Of a stretch of DNA of 30,856 nt, positions 6,448 through 19,026 are shown one piece after another. A program made the translations under genes and the position numbers. Numbering within the stretch: position 1 is the stretch's first letter; each line of letters begins with the position of its first letter. Below the pieces are notes generated by a model that was not told the origin of the DNA, searched no databases, and saw nothing but the letters and a program-made list of their open reading frames with translations. Origin of the DNA: Pseudomonadota bacterium (GTDB lineage: Bacteria > Bdellovibrionota > Bdellovibrionia > Bdellovibrionales > SG-bin7); contig JAWXAY010000028.1 of assembly GCA_034439715.1 (NCBI GenBank), positions 1-30,856 on the forward strand. The letters are read 5' to 3'.

Positions 6448-7605
6448 CTAGTGAGCGAACTGACCGGCACATGAAAAGGCGCGGACTGCCGCCCCCCGCT
6501 TTCGGCTCGCATGGAATTCATATCCAATCAAGAGCATGCCTAAGCCGATCATTCCGTATTGAGTAACTTGAGAGCCTGATAGAGCATACATCACCGCGAG
6601 GTTTTGCGTAAAGCTAATGCTAAGGGAGGCTACCTTATAAGCGAAAGCTGCTTTATTTCGTTTAAGTTCAATTTCTTCAGGGGTACTACCTACGACATTA
6701 AGTTTTGCTTTAATTAAAAAGCGGGTCAGAATCGCTTCATAAAAACTAAAAAGTGTATATCCCGCAGTGGACATCCAAAAATTATGCATAACTTCGCTGG
6801 TTTTTTCTGCGACCGGAAAAGCAAACTCCCAGCTATTAACCGCTGCCAAAAAGAAAATCTCTACCAAAAAAATTTTAGCCAAGCGGTTTGAGAATTTGTC
6901 AACTTCTAAACCCTCTGGCCTCTCGTCTTTACCATTTTTAATATTCTCTTCGTAAGCTAACTGTAGCCTATGATTTTTTTTAGTCTTCTCATGACTCCAG
7001 CCCTTGTAATTTAAAAACGTCCCAATTGTGTCGAAGTTAGCTCTGTAAACGGCAGCTATACCCAATAGCATAACCGCTGTACTCACCAAACGAGTAACAC
7101 TCGCGTCGTTGGCGGAAATATTACCAACAGTAAACGAAATTATTGTTGAAGCTGTCCCCAAAAACGTCGTAACAATCGTCACATTTTTTCCGCTCTGCAG
7201 TGGGTGGCGGAAGGCTTCTTTAAGACCTTGGGCAACTCTTGGAATGTTAATTGCGGCATAACCATAAATAGCACTTGTCTTTTTCACTGAAGATTTTATT
7301 GGCTGCCAAAACTGCGTCTCCAAACGGTGATAAATCGCCTCGTACATTTCGGGCGTCATAAAATACGCCAAAGTATTATTTATGCCACCCTCTGACATTT
7401 CGGTGAGAGGAAAAACTTTTTCTACAGGCATGGGATCCGAAACATCAATTTTGATTTCAGAGTCTGAAGCCTCTTGAACCGCAGGTTTTTCTTGCGCAAG
7501 CCCATAAACAGGCGAAAAAATCATAGCAAATATCAGGACATAGGACGTCACTGCCCTACCATTTTTGCGGTCTCGCTTATGCATTTTAGTCATTACATCG
7601 AACAT
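6448..7605 (-). CDS. Hypothetical multi-pass membrane protein with signal peptide
   Basis: 385-aa ORF; signal-like segment ending VYGLA; several hydrophobic helices; strong sigma54 promoter upstream; C-terminus SCAGQFAH. Confidence 0.8.
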   Translation of the reverse strand: MFDVMTKMHKRDRKNGRAVTSYVLIFAMIFSPVYGLAQEKPAVQEASDSEIKIDVSDPMPVEKVFPLTEMSEGGINNTLAYFMTPEMYEAIYHRLETQFWQPIKSSVKKTSAIYGYAAINIPRVAQGLKEAFRHPLQSGKNVTIVTTFLGTASTIISFTVGNISANDASVTRLVSTAVMLLGIAAVYRANFDTIGTFLNYKGWSHEKTKKNHRLQLAYEENIKNGKDERPEGLEVDKFSNRLAKIFLVEIFFLAAVNSWEFAFPVAEKTSEVMHNFWMSTAGYTLFSFYEAILTRFLIKAKLNVVGSTPEEIELKRNKAAFAYKVASLSISFTQNLAVMYALSGSQVTQYGMIGLGMLLIGYEFHASRKRGAAVRAFSCAGQFAH

Positions 7606-7677: not shown

Positions 7678-8205
7678 CTACAGAATCAGCCTTCTCAACT
7701 CTTGTTGGGAGTAAACGTAATCGGCATAGATCATGGTGTTGGTGATATTACAGTGACCAAGCGCCACCTGTACCAGCCTCACATCTTTGGTTTTCTTATA
7801 AAGTCGAATGGCAAATGTGTGTCTCAGAGCATGGAATTTCTTAACCGTGGGGCGATAAAATTCCCAGATTTGGCGTAGTCGGCTATAACTAATCGGAAAG
7901 AGGCGTTCGGATTGTTCAGTTTCACAGTAGTCGAGTAAGTGCCTAAACAACTTCGGCGGCAGAGGTATTTCGCGGTCTTTACTACCCTTTATCCCTCTAA
8001 TAAAAACTGTTTCATCAGTGCTATTAAGATCTGATTTTTTTAAGTTTAACAACTCCGTAGCTCGGGCCCCTGTGCGCAGAGCTAAAATGATTAACAGACA
8101 ATTTCGCGGCTCTCTAGCGACAAAGTGATTTAGGATGTCCTCAAGCTTTTGGGCTTCGGGTTCTAGCAAGTATTTATTTTTGTTTAAACTGTAGTGCTTT
8201 GACAT
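7678..8205 (-). CDS. Tyrosine recombinase, catalytic domain only (about 175 aa; FimB/FimE-like size)
   Basis: Complete R-K-HxxR-H-Y set: RTGAR, GIKG, HALRHTFA, LGH, TMIY. No core-binding or arm-binding domain. Start set at ATG 8205 (GGAG upstream) rather than GTG 8247. Confidence 0.92.
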   Translation of the reverse strand: MSKHYSLNKNKYLLEPEAQKLEDILNHFVAREPRNCLLIILALRTGARATELLNLKKSDLNSTDETVFIRGIKGSKDREIPLPPKLFRHLLDYCETEQSERLFPISYSRLRQIWEFYRPTVKKFHALRHTFAIRLYKKTKDVRLVQVALGHCNITNTMIYADYVYSQQELRRLIL

Positions 8206-8440
8206 ATTGCTTCTACTCCGTGAGTAAATCTGAAAACCGAATAACACATAGTATAATAAAAATTTTTCCTCTATTTAACTCAATATACTAAACATTACAT
8301 ATTATAAAGTCATTTAATTTCATATACTTAGCACTATGTATTATAACTAAAAGCTGTAGTGCTATTGAGCGTAGGGCAACCCTAGCTATGGATTCAAATC
8401 TATTCAATTTGATTTCAATTCTATAAAATGACAAAATATG

Positions 8441-8478
8441 TATTACACAACGTATAATTATGTGAAACACCACATAAT
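8441..8478. other. dif-like recombinase core site with an overlapping palindrome
   Basis: TATTACACAA-CGTATAA-TTATGTGAAAC; the right arm matches the E. coli XerD arm TTATGTTAAAT at 9/11. Also ATTATGTG-N6-CACATAAT (8457-8478). Confidence 0.4.
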
Positions 8479-8495
8479 ATGGTGAAAGGAAATAC

Positions 8496-8993
8496 ATGGA
8501 AGAGTTAGTTAGTGCGTCGAGTCAAAATAATGTGAAACAGAAATTGACGACATTAAAGGTAAAAAGCCCGCATCGAATGATTTATGAATCTGAAGTAGTA
8601 GTGATTAAACGCCTGATCGGCGACTTAGAACAGATTCGACAAAATTTGGGGCTTTCTCAGCGAAAAATTTGCCAACTTTTGATGGTAGATCCCTCGGCAT
8701 GGACCAGATGGATAAAAACTAAGGGGGGCGCTCCCCCACATGTTTACCGAGCTTTGCAGTGGTATTTGCAGCTTATCGATAAACATCCCTCTTTAAAACC
8801 CGCACTTTTTTTAGCAGATTTTAGGGCAAGTGCTCCAACACTCCCTGCCGCACCCAATCCCGAGTTTGGTAGATTCCGAGAATCTCTTGTCCTCGTTATG
8901 AGCGAAATCAAAAGACTAAAACAGATCTATGTCTTTGCACTCCTCGCCTGTTTGGCAATTGTGGCGGTATTTGTTTTAAACCGCTTAAACTGA
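8496..8993 (+). CDS. XRE-type HTH protein with C-terminal membrane anchor
   Basis: HTH LEQIRQNLGLSQRKICQLLMVDPSAWTRW; Pro/Ala linker; short coiled coil; terminal TM IYVFALLACLAIVAVFVL; AAGGA RBS. Confidence 0.82.
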   Translation: MEELVSASSQNNVKQKLTTLKVKSPHRMIYESEVVVIKRLIGDLEQIRQNLGLSQRKICQLLMVDPSAWTRWIKTKGGAPPHVYRALQWYLQLIDKHPSLKPALFLADFRASAPTLPAAPNPEFGRFRESLVLVMSEIKRLKQIYVFALLACLAIVAVFVLNRLN

Positions 8994-9132
8994 TACCCAA
9001 GGGTGATTCAAGACCGTTTCTGACATGATTTCCCAGTCGTCTCGAGGAGTCTAATATTTGTCAAACTATACCCTTACTAATAATACATAGGTATCATGCT
9101 TGGGCAGATAACAAATAGACACCGCCAAAGAA

Positions 9133-12100
9133 CTAAATATTCCTGCGGTATTGTCCGCCCACTTCGTAGAGGGCTTGGGTCATCTGATATAGAGAACAGT
9201 GGGGAGCTGCCGACATTAAGGCTTCAAAAATATTTCGACCTTGAAGAGCTGCGTCTTTTAGTTTTTTGATTTCGCTTTCGGCCTGAGCCTTATGGTTCTT
9301 TTGAAAGGATATTAAATTATTTCGTTGCTGTTCTTTTTCCGCAATAGTGGCCCGCGCCATCGGAATTTTGGGAGGGACATAATCCGCCTTTAGGGTTTTT
9401 GGATCAATAAAAGTATTAACCCCGACGATCGGCAGTTCACCTGAATGTTTTTGATGTTCATACAACAAAGACTCTGCTTGAATTTGGCTACGCTGATACT
9501 GAGTTTCCATTGCACCTAAAACTCCACCACGTTCACTAATTCTCAAAAATTCATCTAGCACCGCTTCTTCGACGAGCTCAGTGAGCTCGTCAATAAAATA
9601 ACTACCTTGAAGAGGGTTTTCGTTAATAGCCCAACCAAATTCTTTATTAACGATCATTTGAATCGCCATAGCCCGACGCACAGATTCTTCAGTTGGTGTG
9701 GTGATCGCCTCGTCATAAGCGTTGGTATGAAGAGAATTACAATTATCAAAGAGCGCAATGAGCGCCTGCAGCGTCGTGCGAATATCGTTAAACTGAATTT
9801 CTTGCGCGTGTAAAGATCGACCACTTGTTTGAATATGATATTTTAGTTTTTGTGATCTCTCGTTAGCCTGATACAAATCGCGCATGGCAATAGACCAAAT
9901 CCTCCGCGCCACACGACCCAATACCGTATACTCAGCGTCCATTCCGTTACTAAAAAAGAATGAAAGATTAGGTGCGAACTCATCCACTTTCATTCCTCGT
10001 GACAGGTAATATTCAACAAAAGTAAACCCATTACTCAGAGTAAAGGCCAATTGAGAAATCGGATTGGCACCGGCCTCTGCAATATGGTATCCCGAAATAC
10101 TTACTGAATAAAAATTGCGAATATCATTTTTAGAAAAGTACTCTTGAATATCGCCCATCACTTTTAGAGCAAAGTCGATTGAAAAAATGCACGTGTTCTG
10201 ACCTTGGTCTTCTTTCAAAATATCGGCCTGAACAGTGCCTCTAAGGTTGGTGAGAGTTTTTTGTTTAACTTCTACGAGTTCGCTCGCACTAAGTTTTCTG
10301 CCCAACTGTGATTCTTTATGCCTCACTTGTTGATTGATAGCAGTGTTCATATAAAACGCCAAAATCATGGGAGCCGGACCATTGATAGTCATACTGACGC
10401 TAGTACTAGGAGCGCAAAGATCAAATCCGTCATAGAGCTTTTCCATGTCTTCGATGGTACAGATACTGACACCGCTCTCTCCCACTTTACCGTAAATATC
10501 GGGTCGCTGATCGGGGTCGTGTCCATAAAGAGTGACACTATCAAAAGCAGTAGAAAGGCGTTTTGCCGGCTCGCTTTGACTTAAGTAATGAAAGCGCTTG
10601 TTGGTTCGTTCGGGCGTCCCTTCGCCTGCAAACATTCGCTTGGGGTCCTCGCCAAGGCGCTTTAAGGGAAACACCCCCGCCGTATAGGGGAACTCTCCTG
10701 GAACGTTTTCTAATTTTAAAAACTTTAGGCGATCGCCCCAGTCTGATAAGTTCGGAAAAGTCACCCGCCGAATAATCGTTCCGCTGAGAGTTTTTTTGGT
10801 AAGATCTTGATTTAGAGTTTTTTCGCGAACCTGAAAATCCAATTTTTCTTTTTTGTATCTTTCGCTCTGTTTATTCCAAGACTCCAGGTGCTCTAAGGCG
10901 TCGGGCGGTAGTTTCTTTTTTTGTTTTTCACATTCAGAAGTGACAGATTTATCATTTATGACGATTTTAGTTTTTTCTAAAGCTCCCACTAGAGATGCTA
11001 TCCCGGCCTGTTCTTTTGTTCTATTTTTATAGCCACGTACACTCGCTACGATTTCCGCGAGATAATTTTGGCGCTCAGGAGGCACTATTGCCTTCTGTTC
11101 AAAACTTCTTAGGTTTTTCTTGTATTCGGCTGTTAACAAAAATCTCTGCGTGTCATGTGAGTTAAATTTTTCACACAGACTAAAAAACAATTGGTTAATC
11201 CCCACATCGTTAAACTGAGAGGCTTGAGTCAAAAAAACGGGTAAACCCTCGACGTCCTGACCAAAGACTTTGCGTGACCTACCGTACTGTTTTTTAACGT
11301 CTCGCAAGGCATCTTTAGAGCCTCGGTGATCTGCCTTATTGATGGCAACGAAGTCGGCATAGTCGAGCATGTCGATTTTCTCTAGCTGGCTAGGAGCACC
11401 AAATTCAGCCGTCATCACATAGAGACTCTTATCGCTGACCTCAGTAATCTTCATGCTGGACTGCCCGATTCCTGACGTTTCAACAATGATTAAATTAAAA
11501 TTGAGACTCTTTAATAATTTTAACATTTCCGGAATGGCGCTTGAGATTTCGCTGCCACTGCCACGAGACGCGAGTGAGCGCATAAATACTCCCTCTCGTG
11601 AAAGGGAATTCATGCGAATACGATCCCCCAAAAGTGCACCACCAGTTTTCTTTTTGGAAGGGTCCACACAGAGCACAGCTATATTAATCTCGGGCCAGGC
11701 ATTTAAAAACCGTTGCAATAACTCGTCGATGAGGCTTGATTTACCGGCTCCCCCTGTGCCCGTAATTCCTAAAACCAAGGGGGCCTTACCACCCTCAATG
11801 GCAGCTGATTTTTTTTGGTGTTCAATCGCAGTGAGGTTCAAACCAATTTCACGCTGAGGAATACGCCCCCCCGTTAAAACCTTGGGAGTACTCGTAGCCT
11901 GTTCTAAAAGGTCAAAATCACAACCTTTAATAATAAGTTCGATCATGCCATCAAGGCCCATTTTACGGCCATCGTCAGGATGAAATATTTTTTCGATTCC
12001 ATATTTTTCGAGCTCGGCTTTTTCTTCGTGAACGATGACGCCCCCACCACCTCCAAATATCTTAACGTAAGGGGCACCAAGATCATTAAGCATGTCTCGC

Positions 12101-12336
12101 ATATATTTAAAAAATTCCATATGGCCGCCCTGATAAGAGCTCACACAAATTCCTTGAGCGCCCTCTTGAAGTGCAGCATCGACAATTTCTTTAACACTTC
12201 GATTGTGGCCTAAGTGAATAACCTCAGCCCCTTGGTCTTGCAGAATTCGCCTAATAATATTTATGGTGGCGTCGTGGCCATCAAAGAGGCTCGCCGCAGT
12301 GACAATTCTAATATTATTTTTCGGCTGATAACTCAT
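9133..12336 (-). CDS. icmF: Fused isobutyryl-CoA mutase/MeaB-type GTPase
   Basis: N-terminal B12 domain (FDGHDA); GTPase motifs GTGGAGKSS and NKAD; mutase barrel with RMFAGEG (Phe, ICM type), GTVQADILKE, SISGYHIAEAG, QTSGRSL; 1067 aa. Confidence 0.96.
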   Translation of the reverse strand: MSYQPKNNIRIVTAASLFDGHDATINIIRRILQDQGAEVIHLGHNRSVKEIVDAALQEGAQGICVSSYQGGHMEFFKYMRDMLNDLGAPYVKIFGGGGGVIVHEEKAELEKYGIEKIFHPDDGRKMGLDGMIELIIKGCDFDLLEQATSTPKVLTGGRIPQREIGLNLTAIEHQKKSAAIEGGKAPLVLGITGTGGAGKSSLIDELLQRFLNAWPEINIAVLCVDPSKKKTGGALLGDRIRMNSLSREGVFMRSLASRGSGSEISSAIPEMLKLLKSLNFNLIIVETSGIGQSSMKITEVSDKSLYVMTAEFGAPSQLEKIDMLDYADFVAINKADHRGSKDALRDVKKQYGRSRKVFGQDVEGLPVFLTQASQFNDVGINQLFFSLCEKFNSHDTQRFLLTAEYKKNLRSFEQKAIVPPERQNYLAEIVASVRGYKNRTKEQAGIASLVGALEKTKIVINDKSVTSECEKQKKKLPPDALEHLESWNKQSERYKKEKLDFQVREKTLNQDLTKKTLSGTIIRRVTFPNLSDWGDRLKFLKLENVPGEFPYTAGVFPLKRLGEDPKRMFAGEGTPERTNKRFHYLSQSEPAKRLSTAFDSVTLYGHDPDQRPDIYGKVGESGVSICTIEDMEKLYDGFDLCAPSTSVSMTINGPAPMILAFYMNTAINQQVRHKESQLGRKLSASELVEVKQKTLTNLRGTVQADILKEDQGQNTCIFSIDFALKVMGDIQEYFSKNDIRNFYSVSISGYHIAEAGANPISQLAFTLSNGFTFVEYYLSRGMKVDEFAPNLSFFFSNGMDAEYTVLGRVARRIWSIAMRDLYQANERSQKLKYHIQTSGRSLHAQEIQFNDIRTTLQALIALFDNCNSLHTNAYDEAITTPTEESVRRAMAIQMIVNKEFGWAINENPLQGSYFIDELTELVEEAVLDEFLRISERGGVLGAMETQYQRSQIQAESLLYEHQKHSGELPIVGVNTFIDPKTLKADYVPPKIPMARATIAEKEQQRNNLISFQKNHKAQAESEIKKLKDAALQGRNIFEALMSAAPHCSLYQMTQALYEVGGQYRRNI

Positions 12337-13127: not shown

Positions 13128-13985
13128 CTAACTTTCAGAATAATCGTAAAATCCACGACCGGTCTTCTTACCCAGCCATCCGGCCTCAACGTATTTTATT
13201 AGTAGTGGGCACGGACGATATTTAGGATCGCCTAAACCTTCATGCAGAACTTGCATGATAGCAAGACAAGTATCAAGTCCAATGAAATCAGCAAGCGCTA
13301 AAGGCCCCATCGGCTGATTGGTGCCAAGTTTCATTGCTTGATCAATATCATCAACCTGTGCAATTCCTTCATGAAGTGCAAATATAGACTCGTTTATCAT
13401 TGGCATCAGTACTCGATTTACAGTAAAACCAGGCATATCTTTTGACTCTACTAATACTTTGCCTATTTTTTTTACCAACTCTCTCATGACATCAAAAGTG
13501 GCTTGAGAGGTTTGCAGTCCCTTGATGCCTTCAACAAGCTTCATGACAGGAACGGGGTTCATGAAGTGCATCCCGGCAACTTGCTCAGGTCTTTTAGTGA
13601 CAGAGGCCATTTTAGTAATTGATATCGAAGAAGTATTACTTGTGATGATTCCGTGAGATGGCATCACCTCATCAAGTTTTTTAAAAATGTCTATTTTTAG
13701 ATTGAGATTCTCTGATACGGCTTCAACAGCAAAATCACAGTCCGAAGCATCTGCGAGATCTGTAGTAATTTGAACATTCGCCATAAGAGAAACTTTTTGC
13801 TCCGCTGTCATCACTTGCTTTTTAATAAGCCGATCACAACTCCCGGTAATATTTTCTACGGCTCCTTTTAAAGCTGCGTTAGATAGGTCCATCAGTCTCA
13901 CTTTATAGTCTTGAGCTGCAAACACTTGCGCAATTCCCGAACCCATTTGGCCAGCGCCGATGATAGCTATTTTTTTAATATTCAC
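13128..13985 (-). CDS. hbd: 3-hydroxybutyryl-CoA dehydrogenase
   Basis: [24 protein letters not shown]. Start set at GTG 13985 (GTGA overlap with the upstream gene). Confidence 0.93.
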
Positions 13986-15013
13986 TCCATCCCCCGAGGC
14001 GCATAACGCCATGTTAATAACAACTGATCGTTACTGACTTCTTTTGGTTCCGATAAATTCTTTATCGCATAAATAAAAAAACGAGAAGTTTCATTCCAGT
14101 TATGCAATGCTAAACCCAACGTGATCTGCATTTCCTTGTGCCGACCTGCCAATGGGTAAAAGCGAATCTCATCGTAACGTAATAGAATATGCGAAGAAGG
14201 GCCATAAGAAAATTTAAAGTCGATCGTGCCGCCGCCAAATTGGCGAGTATTGGCATTTTCGCTTAAAATTTCAGCTAAATAGACTTTGCCACTATACGAC
14301 CATTTTTCATGCTGACGCTCACCATAGAGTGCCGAAAGGCGCATTTTATGTTTATCTGTTGTCGTAAAAAACTCATCGAGCGATGGATCGAGAGCAACAT
14401 TGGTACTTTCAGGGCTTGTCTGCCCCACCTGGGCACTTATTCCCACTTCTTGCTTTTTTTCTTTGTAGGCCCATTTCGCTGAGAGCCAGGCGCGATTGTC
14501 CAGGTCGTTTCCACCTTCTCCATTGTGAACTGTCAACGCCGTATAAGCAAATCCTTGGCTGACATAGTAGCTAAAGCCCACGTCTCTGATTCCTAAGATT
14601 CTTTTCTGGTAAATGAGACTTCTCGGAAATAACAACTGTTCTTCGCGAGCTCCACTCTCTAATCCAAAATCGAGAGGCACTAAGCCTGCTCTAAAATTTC
14701 CGATGCCACTGGCAAATTCTCCGAAACCTTCAATGAGCCCCATGCCGCTCAATTCAACGCCGTACCTTGCCGGCTTGCCGATGAGTTCTTGATTTCCTAA
14801 AGTGATATCGGCCCACCAATGGGCATCGTTTTTCCAGCGAAATCCCACAAGTGCTTTAGCCAGCAAAAAATTCGCCGTTTTTGGTTCGGTGACTGAAAAA
14901 CTGGGCTCCAGCAATAAGCGCTGCACACCCATTTCCCCTAAGGCTTCGTCGGCTAAAGCGGTCGCATTCCCTACGATGGTCGAAAAGAGAAAGGTCCAAA
15001 ACATTTTCTTCAT
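13982..15013 (-). CDS. Putative outer-membrane porin (OprO/OprP-like barrel)
   Basis: Signal peptide ending ATALA; amphipathic beta strands; RDVG and NGEG motifs reminiscent of anion-selective porins; AGGAG RBS. Confidence 0.6.
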
Positions 15014-16446: not shown

Positions 16447-17179
16447 TCGCTAACCCTTCTATCATTTTTTCCCTAACTAGGTTTTGTAAACTCTCTAAAT
16501 TTTCTAAATTATATTTGCCAGCATCAATGGTCGGCAAAATTTTAACAGTGACCACCGTTTGCCAATGATCAGCGCCCGGAAGTAAACTTTTTTTCTTTAG
16601 GAGATGATGGGCATTTTTGATAACGATAGGTACCAATAGTGCCTTTGACTCGATCGCAAAAATAAAAGGCCCATTTTTGAACCGCCCAATGACATTATCT
16701 ATTTGCCGAGTGCCCTCGGGTGCCAATATAAAATTGGTTCCTTTCTGTAGACTCTCATAAACGGTGCGGTACATCGCTAATACCTTGTCTCTTTTGCTGC
16801 GCTCAATTTTTAAGGCGTTCACACTTCTCATACCTAATGACAAAAAGGGAATTCTAAATAGTTCTTCCTTGGCCCCAAAACGAATAGGAAGCTTCAGTGC
16901 GGCTACCAAAACCGGAATATCGTAGTGAGAACAGTGGTGAAATAAAAATAAACTCCCCTTTTGTGGCAAGTTCTCGCGGCCAAAGACTCTTAATCTACCG
17001 CCAGCGCTAAGCAGTAGAGTCCAGCCCCACAACCAGGGAAGAACAACAAAACAAATTCTGTCCCATCCCAAAGTACGCGTCAGCAAAAGTAAAATACTAC
17101 AGATAACAGTAAACACTCCGACGCAAAAAATAGCAAAAAGTGCGCGCACACGAGTTAACACCCACCTTAAAAGCGACAC
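16433..17179 (-). CDS. plsC: 1-acyl-sn-glycerol-3-phosphate acyltransferase family protein
   Basis: HCSHYD (HX4D), AKEELF, APEGTR, FKNG; N-terminal hydrophobic helix. Confidence 0.9.
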   Translation of the reverse strand: MSLLRWVLTRVRALFAIFCVGVFTVICSILLLLTRTLGWDRICFVVLPWLWGWTLLLSAGGRLRVFGRENLPQKGSLFLFHHCSHYDIPVLVAALKLPIRFGAKEELFRIPFLSLGMRSVNALKIERSKRDKVLAMYRTVYESLQKGTNFILAPEGTRQIDNVIGRFKNGPFIFAIESKALLVPIVIKNAHHLLKKKSLLPGADHWQTVVTVKILPTIDAGKYNLENLESLQNLVREKMIEGLATISS

Positions 17180-18279
17180 TAGATCCCTCCCAACACACGA
17201 CTGCGTGCCGCCGCGATCTGTCGCTCTTTATATTTATCATGGGCACTGGGACCTGAAAGTGTTTGTAGATAGGTCTCTTGACTCATAATTTGCACTTCAT
17301 AAGGATAGTAAAAACTCAAGTGTCGCTGGGCCTTCTCGAGAATATTCTCGATCGTGATACGCCGACGGTTAATAAATTTGATCGCACGATAATTTTCGCC
17401 AGAAAAAATATTTTCGCGCTCTTTATATTCAGCTCTGGTCATTTCATTTTCCAATTTTTCGTGCAAGTCTTTATCCACAGAATCGCTGTTTAAATCGCGA
17501 CCAGATTTTTTGACTTCATCTAAATATTCGAAAAAAAGATTTACGGGATAAACGGTGTTTCTGGCTTCGGTAATCACGTTATTAGGAAAACTCACCAAGT
17601 GTTCTTCTATTAAAAATCGCACCACTCGGAAAGAGTCAAAGATCCCTTTAGTGACAAAGCGAATCCCCACTCTATCCATTATAAATGGAGCCACATACTC
17701 ACGCTTAGCCAGCAGTTTAACAACTGCACTGGTAGAGGTTTTTAGCGGTTTCACATCGAAGCGAACCAACTTTATTTGATCTTTGTCAGCCTCCCGACCG
17801 AGTGTCACACCCCCGACACCCGAGATCTCAACAAGCCGTTCTTTAAAGGGTCGTAAAATCTGTAATTGCATTTGCTCGATAAAATGCGAACTCAAATCAT
17901 TTTTTAGATGCACGAGAACATGCATAATTCTTAAAATAGCACATGACCATTTTTGAAAAACATTATCGCCTTCGCTCATTGTACTCGAATAAATAAGCAG
18001 GTAACCGATGTGTCCAAGTCGGTTGGGATCTAATAAGACCTCGGGTAGGTCTTTGGCATTAACCTTAAAAACATCCTTTAGCATAGTCACCGCTTGGCGA
18101 TGAAAAGACCAAATTTGTTCTCTGTCCTTATCCTCATCCCAGTTATAACCATAGGTGCGAATAAACTCATTAGCTTCTTCGAGAGTGTGAATATTAAGGC
18201 GAGGTATGTCGATGGCAGAGATGCCACCTAAAACGACATCAAAGGCTTGGCGGGGGAAGTCATATTTACTAGACGACAT
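17179..18279 (-). CDS. TIGR04552/TIGR04562-like protein with RelA/SpoT-type nucleotidyltransferase motifs
   Basis: Motifs KTSTSAVVKL, DRVGIRFV, YRAIKF, YEVQIM, HDKYK. Family name recalled from memory, not searched. TAGTG overlap with plsC. Confidence 0.7.
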   Translation of the reverse strand: MSSSKYDFPRQAFDVVLGGISAIDIPRLNIHTLEEANEFIRTYGYNWDEDKDREQIWSFHRQAVTMLKDVFKVNAKDLPEVLLDPNRLGHIGYLLIYSSTMSEGDNVFQKWSCAILRIMHVLVHLKNDLSSHFIEQMQLQILRPFKERLVEISGVGGVTLGREADKDQIKLVRFDVKPLKTSTSAVVKLLAKREYVAPFIMDRVGIRFVTKGIFDSFRVVRFLIEEHLVSFPNNVITEARNTVYPVNLFFEYLDEVKKSGRDLNSDSVDKDLHEKLENEMTRAEYKERENIFSGENYRAIKFINRRRITIENILEKAQRHLSFYYPYEVQIMSQETYLQTLSGPSAHDKYKERQIAAARSRVLGGI

Positions 18280-18305: not shown

Positions 18306-18983
18306 TTAATTGCAAATGAAAAAGTCGCAAGCAACAATTGAGAATTTTCCGAGCTGTTGGTAGCCCTTGGGCAGTCCAGGATCAGCAGAAACCCAGTTCT
18401 GATAAAATACGCTTCCTTCAAATCTGGCGCCCATGACGTTACCAATAAATTGAATATTCCCGTAGTTATCTGAAAAAGTGAGGTTCACGTTTAAACCATT
18501 TGACTGGCTTGAAGCGCCAATCATATCGATGGGGTATTCAGGAATAATTTTACCATCTCTATCGCTTGTTCCCGCTAAAGAATCCCAAACCACCAATCGA
18601 AGTGAAGCCGTGGCTAGATCGATATTAGTGATGGCGCCACTGGTAACAGTTGCCTTGACCGCGCCTTGAAACATCACTCCTGTTTTTTGTCCCGCGAGGG
18701 GATCAACTGTTCCCATTTCGCTCAGCGGGACTGTTGCTGACATAAGGCCTTGCACCTGTGTGTTAAAAAAGCCATGTTGCCATGTAGGTTCTGAAGTAAC
18801 ATAACCCCATTGACCAGAGTTGTTTAAGTTAAGCTGCCCAACCATACCTTGTGCGATATTGGTATAAGCGCTCTGGCCTCTGGCCAAACGTTGAGTCAGG
18901 GTCTGTCTTTTGTTTGACTTTGAACAGGCCGCGCCCAAAAACAGAGTCAATAATAGTGTCGAAAAGCAAAGCACCTTTTTCAT
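18306..18983 (-). CDS. Hypothetical lipoprotein
   Basis: Lipobox in MKKVLCFSTLLLTLFLGAAC; AAGGAG RBS before ATG 18983. The longer start at 19022 lies inside the sigma54 promoter. Confidence 0.82.
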   Translation of the reverse strand: MKKVLCFSTLLLTLFLGAACSKSNKRQTLTQRLARGQSAYTNIAQGMVGQLNLNNSGQWGYVTSEPTWQHGFFNTQVQGLMSATVPLSEMGTVDPLAGQKTGVMFQGAVKATVTSGAITNIDLATASLRLVVWDSLAGTSDRDGKIIPEYPIDMIGASSQSNGLNVNLTFSDNYGNIQFIGNVMGARFEGSVFYQNWVSADPGLPKGYQQLGKFSIVACDFFICN

Positions 18984-19010
18984 GATAAACTCCTTGATGT
19001 CCTTACTTAT

Positions 19011-19026
19011 CGCAAGCGCCATGCCT
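19011..19026 (-). promoter_or_regulatory. sigma54 promoter for the lipoprotein
   Basis: Minus strand AGGCATGGCGCTTGCG (GG-N10-GC, TTGC); predicted +1 near 19000, just upstream of the RBS. Confidence 0.7.

What the first reader, a model, noticed from the sequence alone, without database searches (positions are those of the whole stretch)
7678..9118. Minimal tyrosine recombinase plus membrane-tethered HTH protein plus shared repeats: candidate undescribed recombination/DNA-tethering system
Seen: a 175-aa recombinase with a full catalytic set but no core- or arm-binding domain, divergent from a protein built as XRE-HTH, linker, coiled coil and C-terminal TM. The 290-bp spacer is very AT-rich (12 G+C in 60 nt at 8281-8340) and repeat-dense. 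No phage, transposon or conjugation genes are nearby. Established: catalytic-domain-only tyrosine recombinases such as FimB/FimE are local invertases that rely on accessory proteins, and XerCD is activated by membrane-bound FtsK. Inference: the HTH-TM protein supplies the missing specificity and holds the locus at the membrane, giving either a phase-variable switch or a resolution/segregation site. The latter would suit a predator that partitions many chromosomes by multiple fission.
Basis: partly seen in the sequence, partly recalled or inferred. Interest (0 to 1): 0.8.

Follow-up and report, generated by a model that had tools for sequence, protein, structure and literature searches.

The report
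Second terminus recombination system in Bdellovibrionales
Most relatives of the predatory bacterium Bdellovibrio keep, usually close to the point where chromosome copying ends, an unstudied DNA-recombination module (a stripped-down recombinase, one palindromic DNA site and a membrane-anchored DNA-binding protein) that may help separate the many chromosome copies these predators make before dividing.

Summary
The gene pair is real and is a core module of the order. Both genes occur in the same 46 of 53 high-quality genomes and both were not found in the other 7. It is normally single-copy and lies 3.6-81 kb from dif in the 71 genomes where both share a contig; XerCD-dif is retained. The site is a true recombination site. 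In one genus paired inverted copies bound segments found in both orientations (3 of 38 cassettes flipped), and a prophage with a related mini-recombinase is integrated in it in another genome. A local phase switch is not supported in this window, which has no partner site. Best guess (0.45): a phage-related, accessory-factor-controlled resolvase that unlinks sister chromosomes without FtsK. Against: no Tn-seq fitness defect, and the membrane anchor is missing in 8 of 45 orthologues. An earlier scan note saw a conserved 28-bp palindrome on other DNA. Not found described in 10 paper searches.

The parts
7678..8205 (-). Catalytic-domain-only tyrosine recombinase, 175 aa (P0001); probable orthologue of B. 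bacteriovorus Bd2025
   Evidence: (catalytic residues invariant in 40 of 40); single-copy orthologue at 54-72% identity in 51 of 61 genomes; named B. bacteriovorus records
8318..8330 (-). IHF-like box starting 2 bp beyond the right arm of the core site
   Evidence: One mismatch to the recalled IHF consensus; such matches are at chance level in the window as a whole (111 seen, 112 expected). Its weight comes from the fixed position in 41 aligned sites
8333..8360 (-). 28-bp core recombination site: left arm 8350-8360, asymmetric 6-bp centre 8344-8349, right arm 8333-8343; degenerate here (6 of 11 arm pairs)
   Evidence: unique in the own genome (51.3 bits, next 5.7; the window copy was in the training set); arm covariation 0.296 vs 0.109 shuffled; inversion and prophage ends fall on homologous sites in relatives
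8437..8451 (.). Accessory box 1 (15-bp palindrome), 78 bp from the core site; presumed binding site of the HTH protein
   Evidence: (43 matches in 38 loci vs 0.6 shuffled; pattern drawn from these loci)
8459..8473 (.). Accessory box 2, 22 bp after box 1
8496..8993 (+). XRE-like HTH protein, 165 aa (P0002): conserved core about residues 25-95, variable linker, C-terminal hydrophobic anchor (residues 143-161); probable orthologue of Bd2026
   Evidence: (54 of 61 genomes)
9064..9091 (+). Partial inverted look-alike of the core site behind the HTH gene; not counted as a working part
   Evidence: pair I5; no partner site above shuffled level in 41 loci; no joint here in contigs of 4 DNA runs

Best explanation
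A vertically inherited, phage-related site-specific recombination system that works beside XerCD-dif near the replication terminus. SHOWN by sequence comparison: recombinase, HTH protein and a single 28-bp site are co-inherited; the site has dif/lox-like 11-6-11 anatomy; homologous sites mark inversion and prophage-integration ends; an IHF-like box and 2-3 helically phased boxes flank it. INFERRED: the mini-recombinase binds the two arms and exchanges strands across the 6-bp centre. Because it lacks a core-binding domain, it depends on an IHF bend and on the HTH protein bound to the phased boxes, which also holds the locus at the membrane (or on DNA, in the lysine-tail versions). With one site per chromosome and an asymmetric centre, the only regular partner is the sister copy, so the likeliest job is to resolve dimers or unlink freshly replicated termini without FtsK, in a filament that has no septum until all chromosomes are made. 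It would back up XerCD-dif rather than replace it.
For: Co-inheritance: both genes in the same 46 of 53 high-quality genomes, neither found in 7. Full site at E<0.001 in 117 of 150 genomes; of the 17 non-g12 genomes without it, 14 also lack the recombinase. Position: 3.6-81 kb from dif, median 12.3 kb, in 71 of 71 same-contig cases; 10.7-27 kb in 24 closed genomes; same polarity in 70 of 71, in 30 of 31 genera. Recombination: inner segment flipped in 2 of 21 cassettes of G037 and 1 of 17 of G044, with ends at the sites and centres matched within each genome; these genomes hold only two tyrosine recombinases each. A 9.4-kb prophage in G170 lies between two hybrid sites with the same centre and encodes a 46% identical mini-recombinase. 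Accessory boxes: only on the HTH side, first-box distances step by about 11 bp (34 loci, R 0.75), and in G044 they stay with the site although the HTH gene is 669 kb away. Extra copies lie beside a ParA-like and a TraD-like gene. Probable orthologues are transcribed, Bd2026 mainly in growth phase (RPKM 42 attack, 156 growth), while ftsK and one xer gene are scored silent (5/31 and 1/25; PMC3627812 supplement).
Against: No dimer resolution or unlinking was observed; the function rests on position and anatomy. Tn-seq in a host-independent B. bacteriovorus background shows no defect for insertions in either probable orthologue (W 1.2-1.8 and 1.8-2.5; neighbours 1.1-1.9; PMC6561027 supplement). 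XerCD and dif are retained (dif pattern in 143 of 172 genomes), so the need for a second system is not evident. Not found in any of about 187 genomes of other classes of the phylum, which include periplasmic predators (recalled). Exceptions to the position rule: in G028 dif lies 143 kb or more inside another contig; G036 has reversed polarity; in the window's own genome the locus is not on the dif contig and codon skew gives reversed polarity. 30 of the 71 rows and 22 of the 24 closed genomes are one genus, and fragmented assemblies favour near pairs. Kept polarity could reflect the general constraint on inversions near the terminus. The TM anchor is missing in 8 of 45 orthologues. In g30 the single Xer-like protein could be the invertase.
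Confidence: 0.45

Rival explanations
1. Domesticated phage attachment platform. The site is a landing pad for small phages and plasmids, and the host keeps the recombinase and the HTH protein to excise, silence or control them. Position near the terminus is inherited, not functional.
For: Prophage integrated in the site in G170. 2-10.5 kb of variable genes lie between site and recombinase in 11 of 51 genomes. Host proteins form a compact group (26 of 27 rows, support 98) among viral and unlabelled mini-recombinases in a quick tree. Two of 12 close viral loci carry a site look-alike at E<0.001, none of 43 distant ones. No Tn-seq defect.
Against: Only 1 occupied site was seen among the strong hits of 150 genomes. 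The 11 cargo blocks have no second site. The G170 phage brings its own recombinase. 54-72% identity across 11 families and conserved phasing are more than a rarely used landing pad would need.
Confidence: 0.18
2. Tether or topology device. The HTH protein anchors the terminus region to the membrane or pole through the boxes, and the recombinase only binds, nicks or relaxes DNA at the site. Crossing-over is a side reaction exploited by phages and by genus g30.
For: One site per genome gives no routine partner except the sister. Hydrophobic tail in 33 of 45 orthologues, borderline in 4 more. The terminus sits near the flagellated pole in B. bacteriovorus (PMC11318664, passage).
Against: The asymmetric centre is conserved (35 of 41 keep the same central pair) and matches within each cassette pair, as strand exchange requires. 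All catalytic residues are invariant. The anchor is replaced in some lineages.
Confidence: 0.15
3. Phase-variation invertase, like FimB/FimE or RecV: the ancestral job is to invert promoter segments.
For: In G037 and G044 dozens of dispersed cassettes hold two inverted sites, 3 of 38 classified are flipped, and pilin-type N-termini lie beside 8 of 22 G037 cassettes.
Against: Seen in one genus only (2 genomes). In 41 ordinary loci and in the own genome there is no partner site, and no joint in contigs of 4 DNA runs over the window locus (contigs drop rare variants).
Confidence: 0.1
4. The site is recombined by the host XerC/XerD (or the single Xer of g30), and the small protein acts only as a partner or regulator.
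For: Same 11-6-11 geometry as dif. In G037 the lone site lies about 3 kb from the only Xer-like gene, and no convincing dif was found near the expected terminus in g30.
Against: The arms do not resemble the dif arms of these genomes. The site tracks the small recombinase, not Xer: genus g12 keeps dif (20 of 21) but shows neither the recombinase (0 of 9) nor the site (0 of 16). In G044 the site is beside the small gene and about 410 kb from the Xer-like gene.
Confidence: 0.07

Closest known systems
XerS/difSL and XerH/difH single-recombinase dimer-resolution systems
   Same: One tyrosine recombinase linked to one dif-like site near the terminus (XerS/difSL linkage: PMC2731167 abstract); catalytic fold closest to XerA and XerH.
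   Different: Those enzymes keep the core-binding domain (XerH chain 363 aa) and replace XerCD (recalled). Here the enzyme is 175 aa, coexists with XerCD-dif, and has an IHF-like box, phased boxes and a dedicated HTH protein.
Plasmid cer/psi sites (XerCD with ArgR/ArcA and PepA) and Tn4430 TnpI/IRS (recalled, no call)
   Same: Core site plus helically phased accessory boxes that could impose a topological filter and free resolution from FtsK.
   Different: Chromosomal, with its own recombinase and an accessory protein that is usually membrane-anchored. Topological selectivity not tested.
FimB/FimE, RecV and Mpi invertases
   Same: Small tyrosine recombinase (FimB/FimE size and lack of core-binding domain recalled). 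In genus g30 one enzyme appears to serve many dispersed promoter switches, as RecV and Mpi do (PMC5903667, passages).
   Different: NCBIfam FimB/FimE-type models score 35-44 bits against cut-offs of 221-222. Most members have a single site with no partner.
Phage P1 Cre-loxP and small phage integrases (Cre biology recalled)
   Same: Recombinase gene beside one symmetric site with an asymmetric centre. Viral relatives at 40-54% identity exist, two of them next to terminase small-subunit genes.
   Different: Host copy is core and single-copy, with no phage genes nearby. No match among 50,697 named phage records at E<=1e-12.
XerCD-dif-FtsK of B. bacteriovorus (Bd3064, Bd2300, Bd0041; PMC11318664)
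   Same: Same 28-bp geometry, same chromosome region, probably the same problem solved.
   Different: Separate site about 12 kb away in the genus Bdellovibrio, different arms, homomeric enzyme without core-binding domain.

Membership tests
Tyrosine recombinase superfamily (PF00589) | Catalytic R-K-H-R-H/W pentad and tyrosine nucleophile in the integrase fold | tested here: met
   85 bits vs cut-off 27; six residues invariant in 40 of 40; fold matches XerA/XerH
XerC/XerD | N-terminal SAM-like core-binding domain, about 300 aa, score over the family cut-off | tested here: not met
   No PF02899 match, 175 aa; TIGR02224/TIGR02225 score 67-68 vs cut-offs 330-335
XerC/XerD | Acts at dif | tested here: not met
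   Canonical dif is a separate single site, kept also in genomes without the small gene; binding itself not tested
XerS/XerH-type single-recombinase systems | One recombinase gene linked to one site near the terminus | tested here: met
   exceptions G028, G036 and the own genome
XerS/XerH-type single-recombinase systems | Replaces XerCD-dif and keeps the core-binding domain | tested here: not met
   Two full-length Xer genes and dif present in G066 and in the own genome; XerS model 57 bits vs 267. Genus g30 has only one Xer-like gene
XerS/XerH-type single-recombinase systems | FtsK-dependent dimer resolution | not testable with these tools
   Needs genetics
FimB/FimE/RecV-type invertases | Pair of inverted sites around an invertible promoter | tested here: not met
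   No partner in 41 ordinary loci or the own genome; met only in genus g30
FimB/FimE/RecV-type invertases | Sequence membership (NF007370, NF007371) | tested here: not met
   35 and 44 bits vs 221 and 222
cer/psi-type accessory-controlled resolution sites | Core site with helically phased accessory-protein boxes | tested here: met
   Boxes 21-22 bp apart, first box stepping by about 11 bp from the core; the binding protein is inferred
cer/psi-type accessory-controlled resolution sites | Topological selectivity for resolution | not testable with these tools
   Needs in vitro recombination
Prophage or mobile-element integrase | Patchy presence and neighbouring phage or transfer genes | tested here: not met
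   One copy in 51 of 61 genomes, 17 of 17 in genus g31; no phage families among 30 window ORFs
Protelomerase (TelA/TelN/ResT) | Larger enzyme acting on a perfect palindrome to give hairpin ends | tested here: not met
   TelA is rank 47 in the fold search; the centre is asymmetric in 39 of 41 sites; the site lies inside single-contig genomes

The most novel reading that the evidence does not exclude
Bdellovibrionia domesticated a phage mini-recombinase into a septum-independent, membrane-anchored machine that unlinks sister termini during filamentous multi-chromosome growth. Lineages that divide by simple fission lost it (genus g12, left unnamed here, lacks all parts and may be the epibiotic genus), phages and plasmids exploit its site, and one genus turned it into a master invertase for dozens of pilin-linked promoters.
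Probability: 0.3. Interest if true: 0.88.

Novelty: new variant of a known kind. Interest (0 to 1): 0.72.

Why it matters
How Bdellovibrio separates many chromosomes in a filament before synchronous division is open; a 2023 review names only predicted XerCD, dif and FtsK (PMC11318664, passages). This gives a two-gene, one-site candidate in a genetically tractable model strain (probably Bd2025, Bd2026 and the site between them), testable with standard knockouts and plasmid assays. It also defines the target site of a large unstudied family of about 175-aa tyrosine recombinases (248 clusters at 50% identity, E<=1e-30), shows the same site type used for integration and inversion, and offers a very small recombinase with a 28-bp site as a possible genetic tool.

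Tried and rejected
Two IUPAC pattern searches for the site had the spacer one base too long and are uninformative; the profile search replaced them. The single genome-contig scan gave only 4 loci. Complex prediction of recombinase with HTH domain: no verdict, not used either way. Search for longer or fused forms: none at E<=1e-20 among 1,182 candidates, weak evidence. Sequencing runs: 11 DNA holders, no RNA holder listed; contigs of 4 runs show no joint at the site, which does not exclude rare events. Exact site pattern in viral contigs: none. Named phages: no match. Promoter scan of the spacer: 2 found, 3.3 expected. The site as the true dif: rejected, a canonical dif lies elsewhere with the skew switch. 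The site as promoter or operator of the recombinase gene: unlikely, it stays put when 2-10.5 kb are inserted and lies downstream of the gene in G044. RNA hairpin reading: arm covariation exceeds shuffles, but G-T and A-C mismatches both occur and relatedness inflates the score, so symmetry is read as DNA symmetry. The careful tree did not finish; only the quick tree was seen, with 38 of 150 representatives sampled before a length filter and no test of one clade. Terminus position in G037 and G044 could not be fixed. Supplements of PMC11656739 could not be read and those of the two bioRxiv papers were not seen; gene lists there could bear on the epibiotic link and on expression.

Full report
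OBSERVATION. The window is a whole contig (C28) of a 3.26-Mb, 95.7% complete genome. It encodes a 175-aa protein at 7678-8205(-) and a divergent 165-aa protein at 8496-8993(+). The first matches only the catalytic Pfam model PF00589, folds as a catalytic domain alone (pLDDT 91) and is closest in structure to XerA and XerH. All catalytic residues are invariant in 40 of 40 aligned orthologues. The second has a weak XRE-type HTH and a C-terminal hydrophobic stretch.

A CORE GENE PAIR OF ONE CLASS. A single-copy orthologue of the recombinase (E<1e-50, 54-72% identity) is in 51 of 61 related genomes and of the HTH protein in 54 of 61. Among the 53 genomes at least 90% complete and at most 5% contaminated, the same 46 have both and 7 show neither. 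Of the 51 with both, 36 are divergent neighbours within 1.3 kb, 11 are divergent with 2-10.5 kb between them, 2 are on separate contig ends, and 2 (genus g30) are unlinked. In a phylum-wide sample the recombinase profile hits 51 of 251 genomes, all in the own order but one, which is in the same class; genus g31 scores 17 of 17 and genus g12 0 of 9. Named records place g31 proteins in Bdellovibrio bacteriovorus. From name, length (177 codons), neighbours and distance to the published dif I infer that Bd2025 and Bd2026 are the orthologues.

The spacers share a 28-bp imperfect palindrome of two 11-bp arms around an asymmetric 6-bp centre, followed after 2 bp by an IHF-like box (the IHF label is from a recalled consensus). 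In the window it lies at 8333-8360(-) and is unique in the genome. Arm positions change in step across 41 sites (64 cells with changes on both sides vs 24.8 shuffled; relatedness inflates this). A profile finds the full site at E<0.001 in 117 of 150 genomes, nearly always once. The 33 without it are 16 genomes of g12 and 17 others; 14 of the 17 also lack the recombinase, 2 have a site by the weight matrix and 1 has the gene 196 bp from a contig end. On the HTH side lie one to three 15-bp palindromic boxes, 21-22 bp apart. The distance from core to first box steps by about 11 bp over 34 loci (R 0.75; five near-duplicate loci dropped; kin are not independent). In G044 the boxes stay with the site although the HTH gene is 669 kb away, and one site-less HTH paralogue has a box upstream. 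I infer that the HTH protein binds them.

POSITION. A dif pattern taken from the published B. bacteriovorus site (PMC2731167, table passage) and the own genome hits 143 of 172 genomes. In the 71 genomes where site and dif share a contig they are 3.6-81 kb apart (median 12.3 kb), and the IHF-like end points away from dif in 70 of 71, on either side of dif. Genomes with the two on different contigs or without a dif hit were left out and not counted. Limits: 30 rows and 22 of the 24 closed genomes are one genus, and short contigs favour near pairs. Contrary cases: G028 (dif 143 kb or more inside another contig), G036 (reversed), and the window's own genome, where dif is on contig C22, the genes that separate locus and dif in a same-family genome map to C22, and codon skew gives reversed polarity. 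The window's copy therefore looks displaced, and its arms are among the more degenerate (6 of 11 pairs).

THE SITE RECOMBINES. In G037 and G044 (genus g30) the profile hits dozens of dispersed copies. They come in pairs with near-identical arms and mutually inverted centres, 345 bp apart in G037 and 135 bp apart in G044, and the centre differs between the two genomes but matches within each pair. Scoring the outer flanks shows the inner segment flipped in 2 of 21 two-site cassettes of G037 (26 regions examined, 5 without a pair) and 1 of 17 of G044 (18 examined, 1 unclassified). Pilin-type N-termini lie beside 8 of 22 G037 cassettes. Each genome holds just two tyrosine recombinases, the small one and one Xer-like gene; serine recombinases were not searched. 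In G170 a 9.4-kb prophage sits between two hybrid sites that share the centre; the host arms rejoin to a 10-of-11 palindrome, an intact site stays beside the HTH gene, and the phage's own integrase is 46% identical to P0001. This shows integration at the site, probably by the phage enzyme. Extra copies also lie beside a ParA-like and a TraD-like gene. In ordinary loci, including the window, there is no partner site.

ORIGIN. The family is broad: 248 clusters at 50% identity score E<=1e-30, mostly 165-195 aa. Twelve viral contigs carry relatives at 40-54% identity; two have a site look-alike at E<0.001 against none of 43 distant-integrase loci. In a quick tree 26 of 27 host rows form one group (support 98) among viral and unlabelled relatives, apart from the Xer proteins. 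A phage source is likely, but direction was not tested.

MECHANISM. Shown: co-inheritance, anatomy, position, and recombination at homologous sites. Inferred: the small enzyme cuts across the 6-bp centre and, lacking a core-binding domain, relies on IHF and on the HTH protein at the phased boxes, much as cer and psi rely on accessory proteins (recalled). One site per chromosome with an asymmetric centre leaves the sister copy as the only regular partner, hence dimer resolution or unlinking. B. bacteriovorus grows as a filament with many chromosomes, and a review expects dimers to be a larger problem there (PMC11318664, passages). In RNA-seq, Bd2025 is expressed in both phases (RPKM 54 and 80), Bd2026 is growth-phase specific (42 and 156), xerD is high in growth (54 and 901), and ftsK and Bd3064 are scored silent (PMC3627812, supplement rows only). 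Against: Tn-seq insertions in the probable orthologues show no defect (PMC6561027, passages and supplement rows; host-independent background; the authors note that redundancy can hide pathways), the anchor is absent in 8 of 45 complete orthologues, and other classes of the phylum lack the system. I put the full mechanism at 0.45, and the narrower claim, a working site-specific recombination module with this site, at about 0.85.

WHAT IS KNOWN. Ten full-text searches found no description; the search for Bd2024-Bd2028 with Bdellovibrio returned no paper. Term searches in PMC11656739 (no hits; supplements unreadable), PMC11870529 (passages; 2 supplements without hits), bioRxiv 10.1101/2025.09.24.678257 (passages) and 10.1101/506055 (passages) show no mention of these genes. 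PMC8138268 (passages) has no Bdellovibrio occurrence. PMC5903667 (passages) supplied the RecV and Mpi comparison. The library lacks most subscription papers. An earlier scan note (e1-2431559) reported a strikingly conserved 28-bp palindrome in a spacer of another genome without this interpretation; I had found the motif.

VERDICT. Real, conserved and apparently undescribed. The chemistry is of a known kind; the combination is new: a core-binding-less recombinase kept as a core gene beside XerCD-dif, with a usually membrane-anchored accessory protein, and re-used for integration and for promoter inversion. New variant of a known kind, interest 0.72.

Noticed in passing
G037 (L154-L160, L194-L207) and G044 (L151, L163-L166, L172, L214-L225): Dozens of dispersed invertible cassettes bounded by two inverted copies of the site, many before type IV pilin-like genes: a likely genome-wide phase-variation system in genus g30, which also has only one Xer-like gene and no convincing dif near the expected terminus.
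   Followed up: partly
L173:760-10200 (G170): 9.4-kb small prophage (P-loop ATPase, transglycosylase, acetyltransferase, 374-aa protein without Pfam family) integrated in the site, with its own mini-recombinase of about 200 aa.
   Followed up: partly
L226:1432 (G061) and L227:1572 (G143): Second copies of the site beside a ParA-like gene and a TraD/TraG-like gene, as expected of plasmid or conjugative-element resolution sites.
   Followed up: partly
L006, L007, L008, L010, L015, L059: HTH orthologues whose membrane anchor is replaced by a long lysine-rich tail.
   Followed up: no
L063 (G028) and L064 (G036): Second HTH paralogues without a core site; the G028 paralogue lies 23 kb from dif while the main locus is on another contig.
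   Followed up: no
L012 and L018: The 6-bp centre reads in the opposite orientation relative to the IHF-like box.
   Followed up: no
G020 (closed, 1.6 Mb): No XerC/XerD-like gene at E<=1e-10 and no small recombinase found in this reduced genome.
   Followed up: no
window 9133-12336(-): IcmF-type fused B12 mutase with MeaB GTPase, in a fatty-acid catabolism cluster; ordinary.
   Followed up: no
window 6448-7605(-), 13982-15013(-), 17179-18279(-), 18306-19022(-): ORFs of 238-385 aa without a Pfam match.
   Followed up: no
L066, L067 (viral contigs): Phage mini-recombinase genes directly after a terminase small-subunit gene and before glycosyltransferase genes.
   Followed up: partly
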